A stretch of DNA of 43,104 bases, from sequence record PZ445418.1. The stretch is one strand, 5' to 3'. Numbering within the stretch: position 1 is the first letter of the stretch; each line of letters begins with the position of its first letter. Origin of the DNA: a phage. Made by a program: the position numbers and the translations under genes. Shown here one piece after another: positions 2,918-43,104 of the stretch. A model generated the notes under the pieces. The model saw only the letters and a list, made by a program, of their open reading frames with translations, was not told the DNA's origin and searched no databases.

Positions 2918-4004
2918 TCAATATATGGCGGACCGCATGATCCGCCGTCACATCTTCACCCAGCGCCTGAGCAATGACCAGGCGCGGAGGGTGCTGGCTA
3001 TGTGGGAGAAGTTCCGGCCCACGTTACTGGGTAAGCTGACCGAGTTACTTGATGGCAAAAAGTCCATGAACAACAAGGCACTTACCACTTTGTTAACGCA
3101 ACTCGACAAGACCGTTAAAGCAGAATTGCGCACCGAGTTTAAGGCGTTGGCCGAAAGCCTTCAGGAGTTTGCCGACACCGAGGCCGATTATCTCGCCGAC
3201 ACATTGACGGCAGCGATCCAGCCGGTGGTCGCCGTACCGGCGGTCGAGGTGGTTGGCGTAGTGACCGGTGCGCAGATCGCAGCTACGGCAATGAAAAACC
3301 CGTTCCAGGGTAATACGATGATGCAATGGCCTGACTCACTTTCTGAGTGGACCAGGACGCAGATCGGCAATCAGGTGCGCGCCGGATTCATCCAGGGCAA
3401 GCCGACTATGGAAATTATTGCGGACGTGAGGCGCGCGCTAGGCGGTCGTAGTGCGCAAGCTATCTCGAGCGTTGTTAAATCCGCAGTAAACCACTATGCG
3501 GCGACGGCCCGCGAACTAATGGTAAAAGCAAATGACGATATTCTCGAAGGTCGCCAATGGTTATCTACATTGGACACGCATACTTCTCCCATGTGCCAGC
3601 TACGCGATCGCCTGTTCTATCCGGTCGATGTTACTCCCACTACAAAAGGCAAGCGCGGCGGGAAAGTGGTGGCGGGATCACAATATGGCGCTGGTCCGGG
3701 CAAGCTGCATTATTGCTGCCGTTCGACGGAGACGTGGAAAGTCAAAGGTATGGAAGATTGGCCCAGTGGTAAGCGTCCGGCACTGAAGGCCGACGCAGGC
3801 AGATTGCTGAGTGAGCAGGTCGACGCGCAGACTGATTTCTTCTCATGGGTGCAGCGCCAGCCGCGCCATATCCTGGAGGAATTATATGGAGTGCAACGCG
3901 CCGACCAGATTATGCGCGGCGTGAAAGTGCCGAAGATGTTTACCGATTCTGGCGAACTGATGACTATTGCACAGCTTAAAAACCGGGGGTTATGGCGTGA
4001 TTAA
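2901..4004 (+). CDS. MuF-like minor head / head morphogenesis protein
   Basis: 367 aa, follows portal; C-terminal W-STLD-THTSPMC segment resembles Mu F family. Confidence 0.55.
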   Translation: MAKTINQYMADRMIRRHIFTQRLSNDQARRVLAMWEKFRPTLLGKLTELLDGKKSMNNKALTTLLTQLDKTVKAELRTEFKALAESLQEFADTEADYLADTLTAAIQPVVAVPAVEVVGVVTGAQIAATAMKNPFQGNTMMQWPDSLSEWTRTQIGNQVRAGFIQGKPTMEIIADVRRALGGRSAQAISSVVKSAVNHYAATARELMVKANDDILEGRQWLSTLDTHTSPMCQLRDRLFYPVDVTPTTKGKRGGKVVAGSQYGAGPGKLHYCCRSTETWKVKGMEDWPSGKRPALKADAGRLLSEQVDAQTDFFSWVQRQPRHILEELYGVQRADQIMRGVKVPKMFTDSGELMTIAQLKNRGLWRD

Positions 4005-4305
4005 GTATGCAGCGATTGGGCTGGTAATTGGCCTGGCGGTTGGATTCTGGCAGGGTGATTCCTACCGCACTGGCGTTGAGGCGAGAGCGGCGCAAGAAGC
4101 GCAAGCGAAAGCCCAACGGCAGCAAACTAAGGTTGTCGAGGGGGCTGTGCAGGCAGAACAGGCCCGCGATGTGGAATACCGGACTATCACGAAAGAGGTT
4201 GTTAAATATGTTACGCGCCCTAACCGCCCTGATTGTAGTTTTGATTCTGAGCGCGTGCGGATCAAGCAACGTGCCATTGATGCCGCTAACCGAGTCGGTT
4301 TATAG
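3997..4305 (+). CDS. putative i-spanin (Rz-like)
   Basis: N-terminal TM helix (IKYAAIGLVIGLAVGFW) then Ala/Gln-rich helical domain; GTG at 3997 preceded by GGGGG; a TTG at 3967 is the alternative start. Confidence 0.4.
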   Translation: MIKYAAIGLVIGLAVGFWQGDSYRTGVEARAAQEAQAKAQRQQTKVVEGAVQAEQARDVEYRTITKEVVKYVTRPNRPDCSFDSERVRIKQRAIDAANRVGL

Positions 4306-4438
4306 ACCGCCTTGCACCTTTGAGAATGCCTCGGCAGACCCAGACGAAGACTTGCTTGTTGATGTTAAAAATATGGAGTGTGGGGCAAAGTTAAGGGCGC
4401 AAGTGCTGGAGTTGCAGAAAATAATTCGGGGGCCGTGA
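4208..4438 (+). CDS. putative o-spanin (Rz1-like lipoprotein)
   Basis: starts inside the Rz-like gene in another frame; lipobox LSAC after hydrophobic signal; RBS AAAGAGG 9 nt upstream of ATG; Pro/Cys-containing mature part. Confidence 0.45.
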   Translation: MLRALTALIVVLILSACGSSNVPLMPLTESVYRPPCTFENASADPDEDLLVDVKNMECGAKLRAQVLELQKIIRGP

Positions 4439-6167: not shown

Positions 6168-7271
6168 ATGTCTTTAACAGTGTTCCAGCGTAAACTCGTT
6201 ACCGCGGTTACGCAAATGATCCCCGACAACCTGAACGTATTCAACGCTGCCGCCAATGGCGCTGTTGTTCTCGGTACTGGTGAAGTGCTGAAGGATGTTG
6301 TAGAAAAAATGTCCGTAGGCTTGATCGCCAACCTTGTTACCGACCGTAACGCCTACGCCCCTGTCGGTACTCCGGCAACCGCTAAAGTGCTGGCGCGTAT
6401 GCTGACCAACTCGGTTAACCTGTCCGCGAAAGTGGGTCCGGTGGCAATCACTAAGGCTATGATGGCTAAGATCGAAACCAACGTTAACAGCGTTGCGGCT
6501 GAGATTGCGGCACAGGCCACGCAAGCGATTATGCTGCATTACCTAAAAGCGGGTATCGGTGCGGGTAAAGCGGCGATCGAGAGCAACAACAACAACGCGG
6601 TATACACCCAACCGGCGCGCGTTGATGGCGTTGGCGGTCGTATCTTCCCGACCCTGGCTGACTTCCCGCTGGCGGCTTCTAAGTTCGGCGATCAGGCGTC
6701 TTTGATTAAGTCCTGGTTTATGGACGGCGTTACCTGGGCAAACTTCATTGCATACCAGGCGCTCCCTTCCGCTGAACAGGTATTCGCGATTGGCGATCTT
6801 CAGGTAATGGGCGATGGCCTGGGCCGTCGTTTCATTATCTCCGATGCCGCTGCCGATGCTATGGGTGCTGGTAAAATGCTGGGTCTGGTCCCTGGCGCGG
6901 TTGCAGTTACCACCAACGGCCTCGATATGCTGGCGCAGGAGAAAGGCGGTAACGAGAACATTGAGCGCTGGTGGCAGGGTGAGTTCGACTTCAACGTGGC
7001 TGTTAAAGGCTACCGTCTGAAGGCGTCCGCTCGTACCCCGATCGAAGGCGTCCGCTCGTTCAAGCTGTCCGATATCACCACCAAGGACAACTGGGAACTG
7101 GACCAGGGCCAGGTAGACAACGCACCGGCAACCGTTCAAGATGTTGGCGCTGTGGGTGATGGCGATACTAAAGGCCGTCGTAAGACCCAGGCCGCACAGG
7201 AAGTGCCGACCCGTCACATCAAGGAAACGGCTGGCGTACTGGTTACGCTGACTGCGACCACAGCGTCCTAA
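6168..7271 (+). CDS. major capsid protein
   Basis: 367 aa ORF after scaffold, followed by a strong terminator; position and size. Confidence 0.65.
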   Translation: MSLTVFQRKLVTAVTQMIPDNLNVFNAAANGAVVLGTGEVLKDVVEKMSVGLIANLVTDRNAYAPVGTPATAKVLARMLTNSVNLSAKVGPVAITKAMMAKIETNVNSVAAEIAAQATQAIMLHYLKAGIGAGKAAIESNNNNAVYTQPARVDGVGGRIFPTLADFPLAASKFGDQASLIKSWFMDGVTWANFIAYQALPSAEQVFAIGDLQVMGDGLGRRFIISDAAADAMGAGKMLGLVPGAVAVTTNGLDMLAQEKGGNENIERWWQGEFDFNVAVKGYRLKASARTPIEGVRSFKLSDITTKDNWELDQGQVDNAPATVQDVGAVGDGDTKGRRKTQAAQEVPTRHIKETAGVLVTLTATTAS

Positions 7272-9369: not shown

Positions 9370-10095
9370 ATGGGTTATCAACTTCCTAACGGGTCCAGCG
9401 TCCAGATTGGGTCCGTACTGGGCAACGGCATCGCTGTTACGGCAGCTACCAACGCCGCCGCGTCGATCTCCGACCTTACGCAAGGTTGCGTAATTACCTG
9501 CGCGGAGTCTCACGGTCTGGTTGTTGGCGACGTTGTTATGTTCACTAAAACCCCGTGGGTCCGTGCGCTGAACCGCGCGTTCATCGTTGGTAAAGTATCT
9601 GGGAACGACGTTACACTGGCGCGCTTCGATACTCAAGACGCCACCAAATACCCGACCGGTGCTTTCGGCGTAGGCACACCAGGCGAGGTGGTGAAGGTGT
9701 CGAGCTTTATCGACTTCCCGTTTATCACTAACGTCGCCGTGTCTGGTGGCGACCAGCAGACTACTACCTTCCAGCCGTTGCAGGTGAATACCGCGATTAG
9801 TCTGAATACCACGAAAAACCCGTTGGTCCAGACGTACACCTTCACCCATGACGAAGAAGACCCGATCCGCCCGATTCTGGAAGACCTGGACGACACACAG
9901 AAAACCACTGTGATTAAGTTCACTAACCCGGCAGCGGCAAGCGGCAAAGGTGAGATCCGCATTTACCCGGCTAAGGTGTCTTTCCAGAAGATTCCATCAG
10001 CTGAAGTAAACAACGTGGAGACGGTGGAGTCCACTCTGACCATGCAATCCGATATGGTTATTTACCGTAAGGACCTGGTTGAAGCGCTGTCGTAA
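9370..10095 (+). CDS. major tail (tube) protein
   Basis: 241 aa, followed by strong terminator, upstream of G/GT chaperone and tape measure. Confidence 0.6.
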   Translation: MGYQLPNGSSVQIGSVLGNGIAVTAATNAAASISDLTQGCVITCAESHGLVVGDVVMFTKTPWVRALNRAFIVGKVSGNDVTLARFDTQDATKYPTGAFGVGTPGEVVKVSSFIDFPFITNVAVSGGDQQTTTFQPLQVNTAISLNTTKNPLVQTYTFTHDEEDPIRPILEDLDDTQKTTVIKFTNPAAASGKGEIRIYPAKVSFQKIPSAEVNNVETVESTLTMQSDMVIYRKDLVEALS

Positions 10096-21068: not shown

Positions 21069-21090
21069 AAAGCCCCGAAAGGGGCTTATT
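21069..21090. terminator. bidirectional intrinsic terminator
   Basis: AAGCCCC-gaaa-GGGGCTT between convergent genes; overlaps lipoprotein stop. Confidence 0.6.
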
Positions 21091-21304
21091 TGCAGGTTGT
21101 GCTTTTGAAATGGCCTACAGACACGTACTGGAAACTAAACGGATAGCCAGCCCGTAACATTTTATGACCGCTAACGTCCGCAACCCCAAACACAGGGACT
21201 GAGTACTCCATACCACTATTCATGTATGTTGCGTCGCAGATTTTAGACGGCATATTGGCACAACCGGACAAAAGAACCACACAAATCATAATTAAAGTTT
21301 TCAT
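21086..21304 (-). CDS. small lipoprotein, candidate Cor/Llp-like superinfection exclusion protein
   Basis: MKTLIMICVVLLSGC signal with lipobox LSGC; AGGAGA RBS; antisense to tail genes next to fibre locus. Confidence 0.55.
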   Translation of the reverse strand: MKTLIMICVVLLSGCANMPSKICDATYMNSGMEYSVPVFGVADVSGHKMLRAGYPFSFQYVSVGHFKSTTCK

Positions 21305-39979: not shown

Positions 39980-40116
39980 GTGCGACGATCCGTGATATGC
40001 TTCAGCACAACCGCTTTGAGATAGGCGGTCGGGTATTTCGCAATTACTTCGTGGCGCGTGCATGGGCGCGCCATATTGGAAAACCGGAAGGGGCAATACG
40101 ATGCTACACGATTTGA
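39976..40116 (+). CDS. small hypothetical protein
   Basis: 46 aa, ATGA overlap with previous gene; not in ORF track. Confidence 0.3.
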   Translation: MSATIRDMLQHNRFEIGGRVFRNYFVARAWARHIGKPEGAIRCYTI

Positions 40117-40388
40117 TATATTGGTTTGGTTTGATCTGCGGGCTGTGCCTGCTTACCGCGGTGCTGGTGGGCGTCCTGATGTTCGTAGTGTGGCCCGCGG
40201 TGGAAGCCGCCAGCATTACCCGCATGACGTTCGAGATATACAAGCGCCGTGGAATCAAGGAGCACCCGACCAGGTTGCGCATGTGGTGGCTGTGGTATCG
40301 CGATATGATAGGCGGGCGAACATTCGAAGCCGTCCGGTCTAGTGGATGGGAGTGGAAAGGCGTCGGCAAGTGGTCCATTTTCGATTAA
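40101..40388 (+). CDS. membrane protein (one TM helix)
   Basis: from ATG at 40101; hydrophobic YWFGLICGLCLLTAVLVGVLMFVVW then basic/Trp-rich tail. Confidence 0.45.
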   Translation: MLHDLIYWFGLICGLCLLTAVLVGVLMFVVWPAVEAASITRMTFEIYKRRGIKEHPTRLRMWWLWYRDMIGGRTFEAVRSSGWEWKGVGKWSIFD

Positions 40389-40405: not shown

Positions 40406-40440
40406 AGTCCCAGTGAGATAAAACTTACTGGGACTTTTTT
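40406..40440 (+). terminator. intrinsic terminator abutting holin start
   Basis: AGTCCCAGT / ACTGGGACT 9-bp stem, 12-nt loop, TTTTTT ending at 40440; ATG at 40441. Confidence 0.65.
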
Positions 40441-40731
40441 ATGGATAAGCTAAACGAGTGGTTATTCGCCCTTGCGTGTCTTGCTGGTGGCTTCGTCGGC
40501 GCACGCATTCATGGCGAGGCAACGAAAGGGCCGTTGAACTTCGTTTTATATGTCGTGGTTGGCTTCCTGTGTGCCATATTTGGTGCGCCAGCTATTGCCG
40601 AGTGGTCTGGTTTGTCTGGTGAGCGCACTGTTGCCGGTTTGGGCTTCGTAACTGCCATCTTCTGGATGCCAATAGCTGACCGGATCCGGGAGACAATTGC
40701 GTCGCTACACCTTCCGGGGGGCGCAAAATGA
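40441..40731 (+). CDS. holin
   Basis: 96 aa with about three hydrophobic segments, immediately upstream of second membrane protein and endolysin. Confidence 0.6.
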   Translation: MDKLNEWLFALACLAGGFVGARIHGEATKGPLNFVLYVVVGFLCAIFGAPAIAEWSGLSGERTVAGLGFVTAIFWMPIADRIRETIASLHLPGGAK

Positions 40732-40973
40732 TTATCACCGTCCTGTTGTTTGTTATCATAGGGGCTTCGTCCCTGTTTAACGTGTATGCGCCGTCCGTCC
40801 AGGATGGCATTTTAGGCCGGGTGTTATATCTGCTAACAGCGATGATCTGCGTTATCGGATTGTTGCAAACAGGAGACGTATCTGACACCACCTGGACCGC
40901 GTTAATCTGGCTGTTTGCATTGCGCACCCTGCGTAATGCTGTTTTGAATGGGGTAAAACATGCGATTCAGTGA
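40728..40973 (+). CDS. second holin/antiholin-like membrane protein
   Basis: 81 aa, two hydrophobic helices, ATGA coupling. Confidence 0.5.
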   Translation: MIITVLLFVIIGASSLFNVYAPSVQDGILGRVLYLLTAMICVIGLLQTGDVSDTTWTALIWLFALRTLRNAVLNGVKHAIQ

Positions 40974-41451
40974 TAACGGTCTACGATTTACGGCAGCATG
41001 GGAGACGTTCAGCCCAGTGCCGTATTTCGCGACTAAGAAAGAGCAGGCCCGCGGCCTGTACACCTGGGGTTATGGTCATACCGGCACTAACCCGCCTCGA
41101 AGCATTACCCGCGCGGAAGCGCTGGAGCTACTTAAGCACGATGTGGCGTATGCTGAGGACTGGGTGAACAAATACGCACATCCGAGCATTAACCAGGCGC
41201 AATTCGACGCGCTGGTGGACCTGGTAATCAATGCTGGTCCGGGTCCGATCGTACCGGATGACGTCGCGAATGATTTCGATGATGCGGTGCGACTGGGCGA
41301 CTGGGCGAAGGTACGGGCTACTCTGCCGCAGTTCCGCAAGCAAGGTGGGGAAGTGCTGAAGGGGTTAGTCCGTCGAGCAATCGGCAGGCAGGCGCTATTC
41401 GATGGTAAGCAGTGGGACGTTGCCGAGAAGATCGGACGTAACGCAGCATAA
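40960..41451 (+). CDS. endolysin, GH24 lysozyme-like
   Basis: GYGHTG and N-Q-A-Q-F-D-A-L-V-D-L-V-I-N resemble P22 gp19 / T4 lysozyme family. Confidence 0.7.
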   Translation: MRFSDNGLRFTAAWETFSPVPYFATKKEQARGLYTWGYGHTGTNPPRSITRAEALELLKHDVAYAEDWVNKYAHPSINQAQFDALVDLVINAGPGPIVPDDVANDFDDAVRLGDWAKVRATLPQFRKQGGEVLKGLVRRAIGRQALFDGKQWDVAEKIGRNAA

Positions 41452-41467
41452 TACGGGGTAACACAGT

Positions 41468-41881
41468 ATGTTAAAAAGTATTCTTGATCATAACGCCGAC
41501 GCGCTCGCCGCGCTGGCTAAAACCGAAGACCCTGGCGCACGCGCTATCATCGCGGACACTATCAGCCATGCAGGCGTCTTTGACGCGAAGCTGCCTAGCG
41601 TGCCGGAGAGTAAGCCGGTGGCAAGTGCGACCATAACCATCACCCCAGTGTCCGCCGCAGTCGGTGCGAAGGCCGCCGCTTCTGTTGCCGTCCAGCCATC
41701 CGACGCAACTAACAAGGCTGGGAAGTGGGTGTCCGCAAACCCTGACTGCGCGGCAATCGACCAGACTACCGGCGAAATCACAGCGAAATCGGAGGGTGGC
41801 GTCCACATCTTTTGGGTGGCATCCGATGGAGGCGGGGCGATGGCGTCCGCCATCTTCACCGTAACGGGAGCAGGAGCATAA
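41468..41881 (+). CDS. Ig-like (Big_2-type) domain protein
   Basis: C-terminal 80 aa fit Big_2 pattern (ITITP...ATNK...W-S-NP...A-ID...G-ITAK..G...I....DGG). Confidence 0.5.
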   Translation: MLKSILDHNADALAALAKTEDPGARAIIADTISHAGVFDAKLPSVPESKPVASATITITPVSAAVGAKAAASVAVQPSDATNKAGKWVSANPDCAAIDQTTGEITAKSEGGVHIFWVASDGGGAMASAIFTVTGAGA

Positions 41882-41887
41882 AACCAC

Positions 41888-41915
41888 AAGCCCGGTTAAT
41901 TCCGGGCTTTTTATT
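41888..41915 (+). terminator. intrinsic terminator
   Basis: AAGCCCGG-ttaatt-CCGGGCTT followed by TTTTATT. Confidence 0.7.
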
Positions 41916-41917
41916 GC

Positions 41918-41947
41918 TTGACTTGCAACCAACTATCAGACCATACT
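41918..41947 (+). promoter_or_regulatory. sigma70-like promoter TTGACT-18-CATACT
   Basis: TGCAACCAA directly after -35; followed by strong RBS GAGAGGAG. Confidence 0.35.
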
Positions 41948-41977
41948 GCTACCGATCAACGAGAGGAGTATTACACT

Positions 41978-42064
41978 ATGGCACGTAATGATATTTGGGT
42001 GATGGCAATATGGTCCACCGCAGCATTCATTGGTATGGTTATTTGTGAGGTGATAAATGGCTGA
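41978..42064 (+). CDS. small hydrophobic peptide
   Basis: 28 aa (MARNDIWVMAIWSTAAFIGMVICEVING) with strong RBS. Confidence 0.3.
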   Translation: MARNDIWVMAIWSTAAFIGMVICEVING

Positions 42065-42227
42065 GTTAGTCCGCCTTATGGCGCGCGATGAACACGTAAA
42101 AGTCACATTCTACGATAGCGGGAAGTGCTGCCGGGTTGAGTGCTGTGACCGCGGCGTTAAAATGCAATTCGAAGGATACACGGACACGATTGTTGATATC
42201 CTACGCGACCTGGGAACGTTGAAATGA
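42057..42227 (+). CDS. small Cys-rich hypothetical protein
   Basis: 56 aa, RBS GAGGTGA, ATGA coupling to next gene. Confidence 0.4.
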   Translation: MAELVRLMARDEHVKVTFYDSGKCCRVECCDRGVKMQFEGYTDTIVDILRDLGTLK

Positions 42228-42436
42228 TTAGACAAGTATTCATGAGCACGCAGGCCACCCGCCTGAAAGAGCTACGCAAACAACTCGAAGGCTTGCGCCG
42301 ATTCGAACGAACGGCAGCGGCAATAGGCATGTCTATCAGTGAGCGGATCGAGATACTATCTCAAATACGCTACACAGAAGGCGCAATAAGCGAAGTAGAA
42401 AGCATGTTAACCCGATACTACGGTCGCCCCGTTTAA
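42224..42436 (+). CDS. hypothetical protein
   Basis: 70-aa helical track ORF. Confidence 0.45.
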   Translation: MIRQVFMSTQATRLKELRKQLEGLRRFERTAAAIGMSISERIEILSQIRYTEGAISEVESMLTRYYGRPV

Positions 42437-42443
42437 CCCTCCT

Positions 42444-42469
42444 AGCCCGCCGATTTGGTGGGCTTTTTT
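42444..42469 (+). terminator. intrinsic terminator
   Basis: AGCCCGCC-gattt-GGTGGGCT followed by TTTTT. Confidence 0.7.
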
Positions 42470-42483: not shown

Positions 42484-42553
42484 CCCAATTAGATGGCAGG
42501 GCCGTCTCCTATGTTGCCGATGGTCGGCGCATATGCACAAAAGGGCTTATATC

Positions 42554-43104
42554 ATGGCAGAAATCAAAGTTAAGGGCCGACGCGCCAAACTGGACGGACG
42601 AGTGGCAGTAACCCCGCGCCGTAAACCTGGCGAGCAAACAGAACACACCAATCTCGGGCCGGAGATCGAATACGGCAAGCGCCGTAGAGGCGGCAAATGT
42701 GGACGTCCTACCGACTACCGTACCGTGTATTGTGACCAGCTTCGCCGCTATTTCGCCGATGCCGTAGCCTGGCAAATCAACTACTCCGACAAAGGTGCTG
42801 CGCAGGTAATCCCTCGCAACAAGATGCCGACTCTAGGTCGCTTTGCCGCAGATATTGGTGTAGGCGTCGCCTGCCTGTACCGCTGGGCGCGCGCACATGA
42901 GGAGTTCGCCGAGGCGATGGCGGACGCTATGGAGTTGCAGAAAACGTTCCTGATGGAAGCTGGCGGCGTGACCATCGCGGCGGGCTTCGCTACCTTCCTG
43001 CTTAAAGCCAACCACGGCGTCCGGGACGATGTACCGCTGGATGACGACGAAGATGATAACGGCGACGTCGTTGTGGAGCCTACTGGCAAAGGTCAGGGTG
43101 AGTA
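42554..43104 (+). CDS. terS: terminase small subunit (stop codon completed by position 1)
   Basis: HTH-like PTLGRFAADIGVGVACLYRWA, acidic C-terminus, directly precedes TerL; RBS AAAGGG. Confidence 0.65.
   Translation, partial: MAEIKVKGRRAKLDGRVAVTPRRKPGEQTEHTNLGPEIEYGKRRRGGKCGRPTDYRTVYCDQLRRYFADAVAWQINYSDKGAAQVIPRNKMPTLGRFAADIGVGVACLYRWARAHEEFAEAMADAMELQKTFLMEAGGVTIAAGFATFLLKANHGVRDDVPLDDDEDDNGDVVVEPTGKGQGE

What the first reader, a model, noticed from the sequence alone, without database searches (positions are those of the whole stretch)
41468..41881. Stand-alone Ig-like (Big_2) protein between the lysis genes and the packaging operon
The C-terminal 80 aa match the Big_2 fold pattern and follow a 50-aa helical N-terminus. 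Ig-like domains in phages are usually appended to capsid or tail proteins; a free-standing copy here, followed by a strong terminator, may be a capsid decoration protein binding surface carbohydrates or an accessory adhesin.
Basis: partly seen in the sequence, partly recalled or inferred. Interest (0 to 1): 0.45.

Follow-up and report, generated by a model that had tools for sequence, protein, structure and literature searches.

The report
Ig-bearing capsid decoration protein allele
This small gene after the lysozyme of an E. coli Dhillonvirus phage encodes the long form of the phage's capsid decoration protein, a 43-residue helical capsid anchor already seen in a solved capsid structure, here carrying an extra Ig-like domain; it is an ordinary kind of phage protein.

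Summary
ORF 41468-41881 (+) encodes 137 aa. It has a two-helix N-terminus, a Pro-rich linker and a C-terminal Big_2 Ig-like domain (Pfam E=5e-11; AF2 pLDDT >90). It is the last gene of the holin-holin-lysozyme unit, ends at a conserved terminator, and lies upstream of terS/terL.

The window is an essentially complete Dhillonvirus (HK578-like) genome. Residues 1-44 are 43/44 identical to PDB 9zys chain H, "Decoration protein gp64" (55 aa). That chain was deposited with a major capsid protein nearly identical to the window's. The domain is not truly free-standing.

About three quarters of sequenced dhillonviruses carry the short 53-55-aa allele (anchor plus Pro/Glu tail). About one quarter carry a long allele, with at least three diverged Ig variants. 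Allele types are interspersed among near-identical lysis cassettes. Both parts are under purifying selection (dN/dS 0.07 for the anchor, about 0.2-0.27 for the Ig domain).

A 137-aa orthologue was detected by LC-MS/MS in pelleted phage EE09 particles. Carbohydrate or cell binding is untested.

Verdict: a new member of a known kind (Hoc/pb10-like Ig-displaying decoration proteins), of modest interest.

The parts
41468..41881 (+). Complete CDS (137 aa plus stop): the long, Ig-bearing allele of the Dhillonvirus capsid decoration protein (gp64 of PDB 9zys; HK578 gp58; EE09 CDS40).
   Evidence: ORF. Family matches. PDB match. Orthologues.
41468..41596 (+). N-terminal capsid-anchor module, aa 1-43: a two-helix hairpin (H2-18, H22-34) belonging to phrog_11068.
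   Evidence: 43/44 identical to 9zys_H 'Decoration protein gp64'. phrog_11068 E=2.7e-32. Helices in the AF2 model. dN/dS 0.066. Only 7 cluster representatives among 1.84 billion proteins.
41597..41623 (+). Pro-rich linker, aa 44-52 (SVPESKPVA). The short alleles diverge from here and end in a Pro/Glu tail.
   Evidence: Alignments. No regular secondary structure in the AF2 model.
41624..41866 (+). Big_2 Ig-like beta-sandwich, aa 53-133 (the Pfam match covers aa 51-124, nt 41618-41839).
   Evidence: Pfam E=5.1e-11. pLDDT 91-95. Foldseek matches T5 pb6-C and lambda gpV-C at 30-33% identity. dN/dS about 0.2-0.27.
41888..41916 (+). Intrinsic-terminator-like hairpin (AAGCCCGG-TTAATT-CCGGGCTT) plus T tract, closing the lysis/decoration transcription unit. 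It is conserved in short-allele and long-allele phages.
   Evidence: 8-bp stem, 6 GC pairs. Conservation shown in the alignment.
40441..41451 (+). Upstream genes of the same unit: holin (40441-40731), holin (40728-40973) and lysozyme (40960-41451). The preceding terminator-like site is at 40406-40435.
   Evidence: PHROG and Pfam matches. Terminator. Same gene order in all relatives.
6168..7271 (+). Major capsid protein, the inferred binding partner of the anchor module.
   Evidence: Pfam Gp13-like. Matches 9zys_A 'Major capsid protein gp09' at E=1.5e-229.

Best explanation
The gene encodes the long allele of the Dhillonvirus capsid decoration protein. Shown by a deposited structure of a near-identical short allele: the N-terminal 43-aa helical hairpin binds the outside of the HK97-type capsid lattice. 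Inferred: in this phage the hairpin is followed by a flexible Pro-rich linker and a Big_2 Ig-like domain. That domain would project from the capsid surface in many copies (9zys holds 2 gp64 chains per 7 MCP chains, which suggests about 120 per T=7 capsid). By analogy with T4 Hoc, T5 pb10 and the lambda gpV C-domain, the displayed Ig domains would give weak multivalent adhesion to glycans on cells, debris or mucus. They are dispensable for particle formation, because most relatives naturally lack them. The protein is made late, co-transcribed with the holins and lysozyme, and is abundant in infected cells.
For: (1) Residues 1-44 are 43/44 identical to PDB 9zys_H 'Decoration protein gp64'. The same entry holds an MCP that matches the window's at E=1.5e-229. 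Companion entries hold the portal and tail tube of the same phage type. (2) Big_2 is confirmed by Pfam, by the AF2 model and by fold matches to virion-surface Ig domains. PDB decoration proteins that carry Big_2 also match: 9kmh gp29 and the 7x30 Hoc-like protein. (3) EE09 CDS40 (137 aa, 13.6 kDa) was detected in pelleted particles with 3 peptides and 28% coverage. It was also one of only four phage proteins seen in infected cells at 25 min (PMC10673088). (4) Purifying selection acts on both modules. (5) Short and long alleles differ by a clean module-sized indel between conserved flanks. Long alleles occur in 38 of 160 phage records. Allele types are interspersed on the tree of the upstream lysis cassette.
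Against: No structure or purified-virion proteomics exists for a long allele. The EE09 preparation also contained lysin, terminase and phosphoesterase, so it does not prove virion association. The gene sits in the lysis operon, not the head module. HK578 carries an anchor only about 33% identical, although its MCP is 97% identical, so the binding determinants are not understood. I found no paper describing 9zys, so the binding site and occupancy rest on the entry's chain names and chain counts only. No glycan- or cell-binding data exist.
Confidence: 0.8

Rival explanations
1. It is a lysis accessory protein: a trans-acting cell-envelope-binding module that works with the adjacent lysozyme, like the stand-alone SH3 protein proposed for Drexlerviridae lysis cassettes. 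Alternatively it is a lysis-timing regulator.
For: It is the fourth gene of the holin-holin-lysozyme unit, bounded by terminators, and this synteny is invariant even in a distant relative. A comparable proposal exists for SH3 in T1-like phages (PMC13164509).
Against: The N-terminal module is modelled on a capsid as a decoration protein. The protein has no signal peptide, transmembrane segment or lipobox (sequence). Spanins are present elsewhere, at 3967-4305 and 4208-4438 (PMC6139136), so no lysis function is missing. HK578's anchor is about 33% identical while its lysozyme is 97.5% identical, so the two do not co-vary.
Confidence: 0.07
2. It is a tail protein, or decorates the tail. Several GenBank records annotate both alleles as 'major tail protein'.
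For: The Ig domain is closest to the C-terminal Ig domains of tail tube proteins (T5 pb6, lambda gpV). PHROG hits to major tail protein families cover the Ig part only. Annotations appear.
Against: There is no tail-tube fold. The real tube protein is at 9370-10095 (Pfam Phage_tail_3), and it matches PDB 'Tail protein gp15' at E=1.6e-150. The PHROG tail hits come from the promiscuous Ig domain alone. The 55-aa short allele labelled 'major tail protein' has no Ig domain at all, so that label looks like annotation transfer. 9zys places gp64 with the capsid protein.
Confidence: 0.05
3. The long allele is a decaying or neutral passenger. The Ig module would be a recombinational add-on without function, and only the anchor would matter.
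For: About three quarters of relatives lack it. Truncated or frameshifted versions exist in metagenome assemblies (P0013, P0030, P0031).
Against: dN/dS of the Ig part is about 0.2-0.27 within and between variants. Three variants only 55-60% identical all keep an intact fold-defining pattern, with 25 invariant Ig-part columns across 30 sequences. The model confidence is high.
Confidence: 0.08

Closest known systems
Dhillonvirus 'Decoration protein gp64' (PDB 9zys chain H, 55 aa; same as SO-1 gp57, phrog_11068, 'lysozyme downstream ORF')
   Same: It is homologous: 43/44 identical over aa 1-44. It occupies the same genomic slot after the lysozyme and has the same capsid protein partner.
   Different: gp64 ends after a Pro/Glu tail (PSPPPPEEPGPAA). 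The window protein instead continues through a linker into an 81-aa Big_2 domain.
HK578 gp58 and EE09 CDS40 (long alleles)
   Same: They have the same architecture and the same position. HK578 gp58 has been annotated 'pfam Big_2'. EE09 CDS40 is 137 aa and was detected by MS.
   Different: HK578's anchor is only about 33% identical and its Ig domain has diverged (pN 0.17 at non-synonymous sites; whole protein 58% identical). A third Ig variant of 135 aa is about 55% identical.
T5 pb10 and T4 Hoc (Ig-displaying, non-essential capsid decoration proteins; from established knowledge)
   Same: The working principle is the same: a small capsid-binding module plus outward-facing Ig-like domain(s), dispensable for assembly. 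A Hoc-like protein (7x30_P) and the Big_2-bearing decoration protein gp29 (9kmh) match the Ig part.
   Different: The anchors show no detectable homology: the N-terminal profile finds only dhillonvirus proteins. The anchor here is far smaller, a 43-aa hairpin. The gene lies in the lysis operon rather than the head module.
C-terminal Ig-like domains of tail tube proteins (lambda gpV, T5 pb6)
   Same: They are the closest solved folds and sequences for the Ig part, at 30-33% identity.
   Different: Those domains are fused to tail-tube folds. Here the domain is fused to a capsid anchor.

Membership tests
Dhillonvirus decoration protein gp64 family (PDB 9zys_H; phrog_11068) | N-terminal module of about 43-48 aa homologous to gp64 | tested here: met
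   phmmer E=8.2e-23 with 43/44 identical residues. Profile E=1.1e-32. phrog_11068 E=2.7e-32.
Dhillonvirus decoration protein gp64 family (PDB 9zys_H; phrog_11068) | Encoded immediately downstream of the lysozyme and followed by the conserved terminator | tested here: met
Dhillonvirus decoration protein gp64 family (PDB 9zys_H; phrog_11068) | Cognate major capsid protein present in the same genome | tested here: met
   Window 6168-7271 against 9zys_A gives E=1.5e-229.
Dhillonvirus decoration protein gp64 family (PDB 9zys_H; phrog_11068) | Physically bound to the mature capsid (for this long allele) | not testable with these tools
   Only indirect evidence: EE09 CDS40 was found in pelleted particles that also held non-structural proteins.
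Pfam Big_2 (PF02368) Ig-like domain | Score above the curated gathering threshold | tested here: met
   42.8 bits against 22.8, E=5.1e-11, profile positions 2-74 of 79.
Pfam Big_2 (PF02368) Ig-like domain | Ig-like beta-sandwich fold | tested here: met
   AF2 pLDDT 91-95 with eight strands. Foldseek probability 1.00 to pb6, gpV, intimin and Big_2-CBM56.
Hoc/pb10-type Ig-displaying decoration proteins (functional class) | Capsid anchor plus surface-exposed Ig domain(s) | tested here: met
   The architecture follows. Exposure of the Ig domain is inferred.
Hoc/pb10-type Ig-displaying decoration proteins (functional class) | Sequence homology of the anchor to the Hoc or pb10 capsid-binding domains | tested here: not met
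   The N-terminal profile finds only dhillonvirus proteins in 1.84 billion representatives and in the PDB. The protein is therefore an analogue, not a homologue.
Hoc/pb10-type Ig-displaying decoration proteins (functional class) | Ig domain dispensable for virion formation; weak glycan or cell binding | not testable with these tools
   Dispensability is suggested by the natural short alleles in about 3/4 of relatives. Binding is untested.
Major tail (tube) protein, as annotated in several GenBank records | Tail tube fold (for example Pfam Phage_tail_3) | tested here: not met
   Only Big_2 is found in this protein. Phage_tail_3 is in 9370-10095, which matches PDB 'Tail protein gp15'.
Spanin or lysis membrane protein | N-terminal transmembrane segment (i-spanin) or lipobox signal (o- or u-spanin) | tested here: not met
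   Neither is present in the sequence. The i- and o-spanin candidates are at 3967-4305 and 4208-4438, consistent with PMC6139136.

The most novel reading that the evidence does not exclude
Within one phage genus, a minimal 43-aa capsid anchor acts as a natural plug-and-display scaffold. Recombination repeatedly adds, swaps (at least three Ig variants 55-60% identical) or removes the displayed Ig domain between otherwise about 93-97% identical phages. This would tune particle adhesion to different gut, mucus or cell-surface glycans. Placing the gene in the lysis operon could couple its dosage to the very end of infection, or give the protein a second role at lysis.
Probability: 0.15. Interest if true: 0.55.

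Novelty: new member of a known kind. Interest (0 to 1): 0.3.

Why it matters
The result corrects scattered annotations such as 'major tail protein', 'hypothetical' and 'lysozyme downstream ORF'. It links them to a structurally defined decoration protein.

It shows that Dhillonvirus capsids come in bare-anchor and Ig-displaying versions in nature. These form a ready-made isogenic-like series for testing what phage Ig domains do, for example adherence to mucus or adsorption.

It also shows that a 43-aa anchor tolerates a C-terminal fusion of about 85 aa, which is useful for capsid display engineering in therapeutic coliphages. None of this changes concepts: Ig-bearing decoration proteins are well known.

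Tried and rejected
- **Duplicated tail or capsid Ig domain.** I asked whether the Ig domain is a recent copy of another domain in the same genome. tblastn of the Ig part against the window found only itself, and no other Big_2 was found in ten structural proteins.
- **Spanin substitute or embedded lipoprotein gene.** A lipobox scan found the real o-spanin at 4208-4438 and nothing credible inside this ORF. Kongari et al. list dhillonviruses as having overlapped two-component spanins.
- **Wider distribution of the anchor.** An exhaustive HMM search of 1.84 billion representatives gave only 7 hits, all from this phage group.
- **Co-variation with the lysozyme or MCP.** I used HK578's divergent anchor as the test case. 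Neither partner co-diverges, so this is uninformative about the binding partner, and it does not support lysozyme binding.
- **Literature on 9zys, on the 'lysozyme downstream ORF', or on Dhillonvirus decoration and cryo-EM.** No describing paper was found. The Sf11 and Bil-system papers were irrelevant. The Ig-like protein of PMC12309495 is a different gene, downstream of the tail spike.
- **Anti-Tmn.** This is a different gene, ORF35.

Full report
**Observation**

The ORF at 41468-41881 (+) is exactly as described: ATG to TAA, 137 aa.
- Pfam Big_2 (PF02368) matches aa 51-124 with E=5.1e-11 and 42.8 bits, against a gathering score of 22.8.
- PHROGs splits the protein in two. Residues 1-48 match phrog_11068, a 55-position family of unknown function (E=2.7e-32). 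Residues about 29-136 match Ig-containing structural and tail families.
- An AlphaFold2 model built on 29 homologues gives two helices (2-18, 22-34; pLDDT about 70), an unstructured linker (35-52) and an eight-strand beta-sandwich (53-133; pLDDT 91-95).
- Foldseek against the PDB puts the sandwich closest to the C-terminal Ig domains of T5 pb6 and lambda gpV, at 30-33% identity.
- A terminator-like hairpin (8-bp stem, 6 GC pairs, T run) follows at 41888-41909.

**Context**

The window is an essentially complete Dhillonvirus (HK578-like E. coli siphophage) genome, permuted to start at terL. Hits are 87-92% identical at the DNA level. terL is at 1-1386 and terS at 42533-43102.

The gene is the fourth and last member of a compact unit bounded by terminator-like sites at 40406-40435 and 41888-41909:
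- holin, 40441-40731
- holin, 40728-40973
- lysozyme, 40960-41451
- this ORF

The same order is found in every relative examined, including a distant one from a metagenome.

The lysis machinery is otherwise complete. Overlapped i- and o-spanin candidates lie at 3967-4305 and 4208-4438, next to the head morphogenesis gene. This agrees with Kongari et al. 2018, who list HK578, SO-1 and EP23 among phages with overlapped two-component spanins (PMC6139136).

**What it is**

The decisive result came from the PDB sequence search. Residues 1-44 are 43/44 identical to chain H of entry 9zys, a 55-aa chain deposited as "Decoration protein gp64" (E=8.2e-23 for the single sequence, 1.1e-32 for the N-terminal profile).

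The same entry contains seven chains of "Major capsid protein gp09", which match the window's MCP (6168-7271) at E=1.5e-229. Companion entries hold the portal (10ec) and tail tube (10lj, 10xw, 23gd) of the same phage type.

So the N-terminal hairpin is an experimentally modelled capsid-bound module in a near-identical phage. The window's protein is that module extended by a linker and a Big_2 domain. I found no paper describing 9zys in the searchable library. The binding site and occupancy are therefore known to me only through the chain names and counts. Two gp64 chains per seven MCP chains suggests about 120 copies per T=7 capsid, which is an inference.

**Allelic dimorphism**

Among 160 phage records with a match, 38 cover at least 80% of the protein, meaning they carry a long allele. 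The rest match only residues 1-42 or 1-60.
- Short alleles (53-55 aa) consist of the anchor plus a Pro/Glu-rich tail such as PSPPPPEEPGPAA.
- Long alleles come in at least three Ig variants: the window type (137 aa), a 135-aa type about 55% identical, and the HK578 type (133 aa).
- The DNA alignment shows a clean, module-sized difference between highly conserved flanks, with the terminator conserved as well.
- Allele types are interspersed on a clustering of the upstream 1 kb lysis cassette. The window's nearest neighbour there (94.1%) is a short-allele phage. The Ig module is therefore gained, lost or exchanged by recombination.
- Truncated and frameshifted versions exist in metagenome assemblies.

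Both modules are under purifying selection. dN/dS is 0.066 for codons 1-43 across 16 haplotypes, and about 0.2-0.27 for the Ig part within and between variants.

The anchor family is tiny and lineage-restricted: 7 cluster representatives among 1.84 billion proteins.

HK578's anchor is only about 33% identical, although its MCP (97%) and lysozyme (97.5%) are nearly identical to the window's. The columns invariant among all variants (M1, L2, S4-L6, L16, A24, R25, I27, A29, G36, F38, D39, P43) are candidates for the hairpin core or the capsid contacts.

**Expression and virion association**

In phage vB_EcoS-EE09, CDS40 (hypothetical, 137 aa, 13.6 kDa) lies next to the lysin and phosphoesterase. 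It was detected by LC-MS/MS in ultracentrifuged cell-free lysate with 3 peptides and 28% coverage. It was also one of only four phage proteins detected in infected cells at 25 min (PMC10673088).

This shows that the long allele is expressed abundantly, and it is compatible with virion association. The preparation also contained lysin, terminase and phosphoesterase, so it is not proof.

**Mechanism**

The claim has three tiers of support.
- Shown: the anchor is a capsid decoration module (from the structure of the short allele), and the C-terminus is a Big_2 Ig-like domain.
- Inferred: the linker lets the Ig domain project from the capsid in many copies. The domain is dispensable for assembly, given the natural short alleles.
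- Inferred by analogy with T4 Hoc, T5 pb10 and the lambda gpV C-domain (established knowledge): the domain provides weak multivalent adhesion to glycans. No binding data exist.

**Rivals**

Three alternatives were considered.
- *Lysis-accessory role.* This would be analogous to the stand-alone SH3 protein proposed for Drexlerviridae lysis cassettes (PMC13164509). Only gene position favours it. The capsid structure, the lack of any export or membrane signal, the presence of spanins elsewhere, and the absence of co-variation with the lysozyme all argue against it.
- *'Major tail protein', as annotated in several GenBank records.* This label looks like annotation transfer through the promiscuous Ig domain. 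The real tube protein is at 9370-10095.
- *Neutral passenger.* Purifying selection on three diverged Ig variants argues against it.

**Comparison with known systems, and novelty**

The protein is a member of the gp64 decoration family; the homology, synteny and cognate-MCP tests were all met. It works like Hoc and pb10, but its anchor is not homologous to theirs.

Small Big_2 proteins annotated as decoration proteins are common in phages. Solved decoration proteins with Big_2 also exist: 9kmh gp29 and the 7x30 Hoc-like protein. HK578 gp58 has carried a 'pfam Big_2' note in its GenBank record.

What seems not to have been stated is that this Big_2 protein is the long form of the structurally defined decoration protein, and that the genus is polymorphic for Ig display. 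That makes it a new member of a known kind, of modest interest (0.3).

The most novel reading not excluded is a natural plug-and-display scaffold with recombinational swapping of display domains, possibly with a lysis-linked role. I give it about 0.15 probability.

Noticed in passing
window 41978-42064 (+), with promoter-like site 41918-41947: A conserved 28-aa hydrophobic mini-ORF (MARNDIWVMAIWSTAAFIGMVICEVING) with a strong RBS (GAGAGGAG) lies just after the terminator. It is preceded by TTGACT-18-CATACT. It is conserved in Gluttony and Sponge. Its function is unknown.
   Followed up: partly
window 42057-42436 (+): The roughly 1.14-kb calcineurin-like phosphoesterase gene that lies between this locus and terS in most dhillonviruses is absent here. 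Two small ORFs take its place: 42057-42227 (56 aa, no family) and 42224-42436 (70 aa, phrog_20931). A terminator-like site follows at 42444-42464.
   Followed up: partly
window 3967-4305 (+) and 4208-4438 (+): Overlapped i-spanin (N-terminal TM) and o-spanin (lipobox LILSAC) candidates sit next to the head morphogenesis gene, about 6 kb (circularly) from the holin-lysozyme cassette. This fits Kongari et al..
   Followed up: partly
window 21086-21304 (-): A small lipoprotein ORF (MKTLIMICVVLLSGC...) lies between the tail-tip and tail-fibre genes. The equivalent HK578 gene is annotated as similar to the RTP phage lipoprotein. It may be a receptor-blocking or superinfection-exclusion lipoprotein.
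   Followed up: no
window 40062-40388 (+): A 108-aa ORF (phrog_2531, unknown function) has an N-terminal hydrophobic segment. It lies just upstream of the lysis cassette and is separated from it by a terminator-like hairpin at 40406-40435.
   Followed up: no
literature: PMC11846954 Table 1 (phage PhiSMA8, GenBank PP920553.1 ~42780-42951): A Tmn-escape mutant of dhillonvirus PhiSMA8 carried a passenger frameshift, 'CDS67 Major tail protein Pro53fs'. From its position near the genome end and the Pro53 site, this is probably the short allele of this decoration gene, mutated in its poly-Pro (poly-C) tail. That suggests the tail is mutable and dispensable.
   Followed up: no
L004/L018 (HK578) 41655-42056 versus window 41468-41881: HK578's anchor module is only about 33% identical to the window's (pN 0.48), while the adjacent lysozyme is 97.5% identical and the MCP 97% identical. 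A third divergent short anchor (P0036) occurs in a distant relative (L019). How such different hairpins bind a nearly identical capsid is unexplained.
   Followed up: partly
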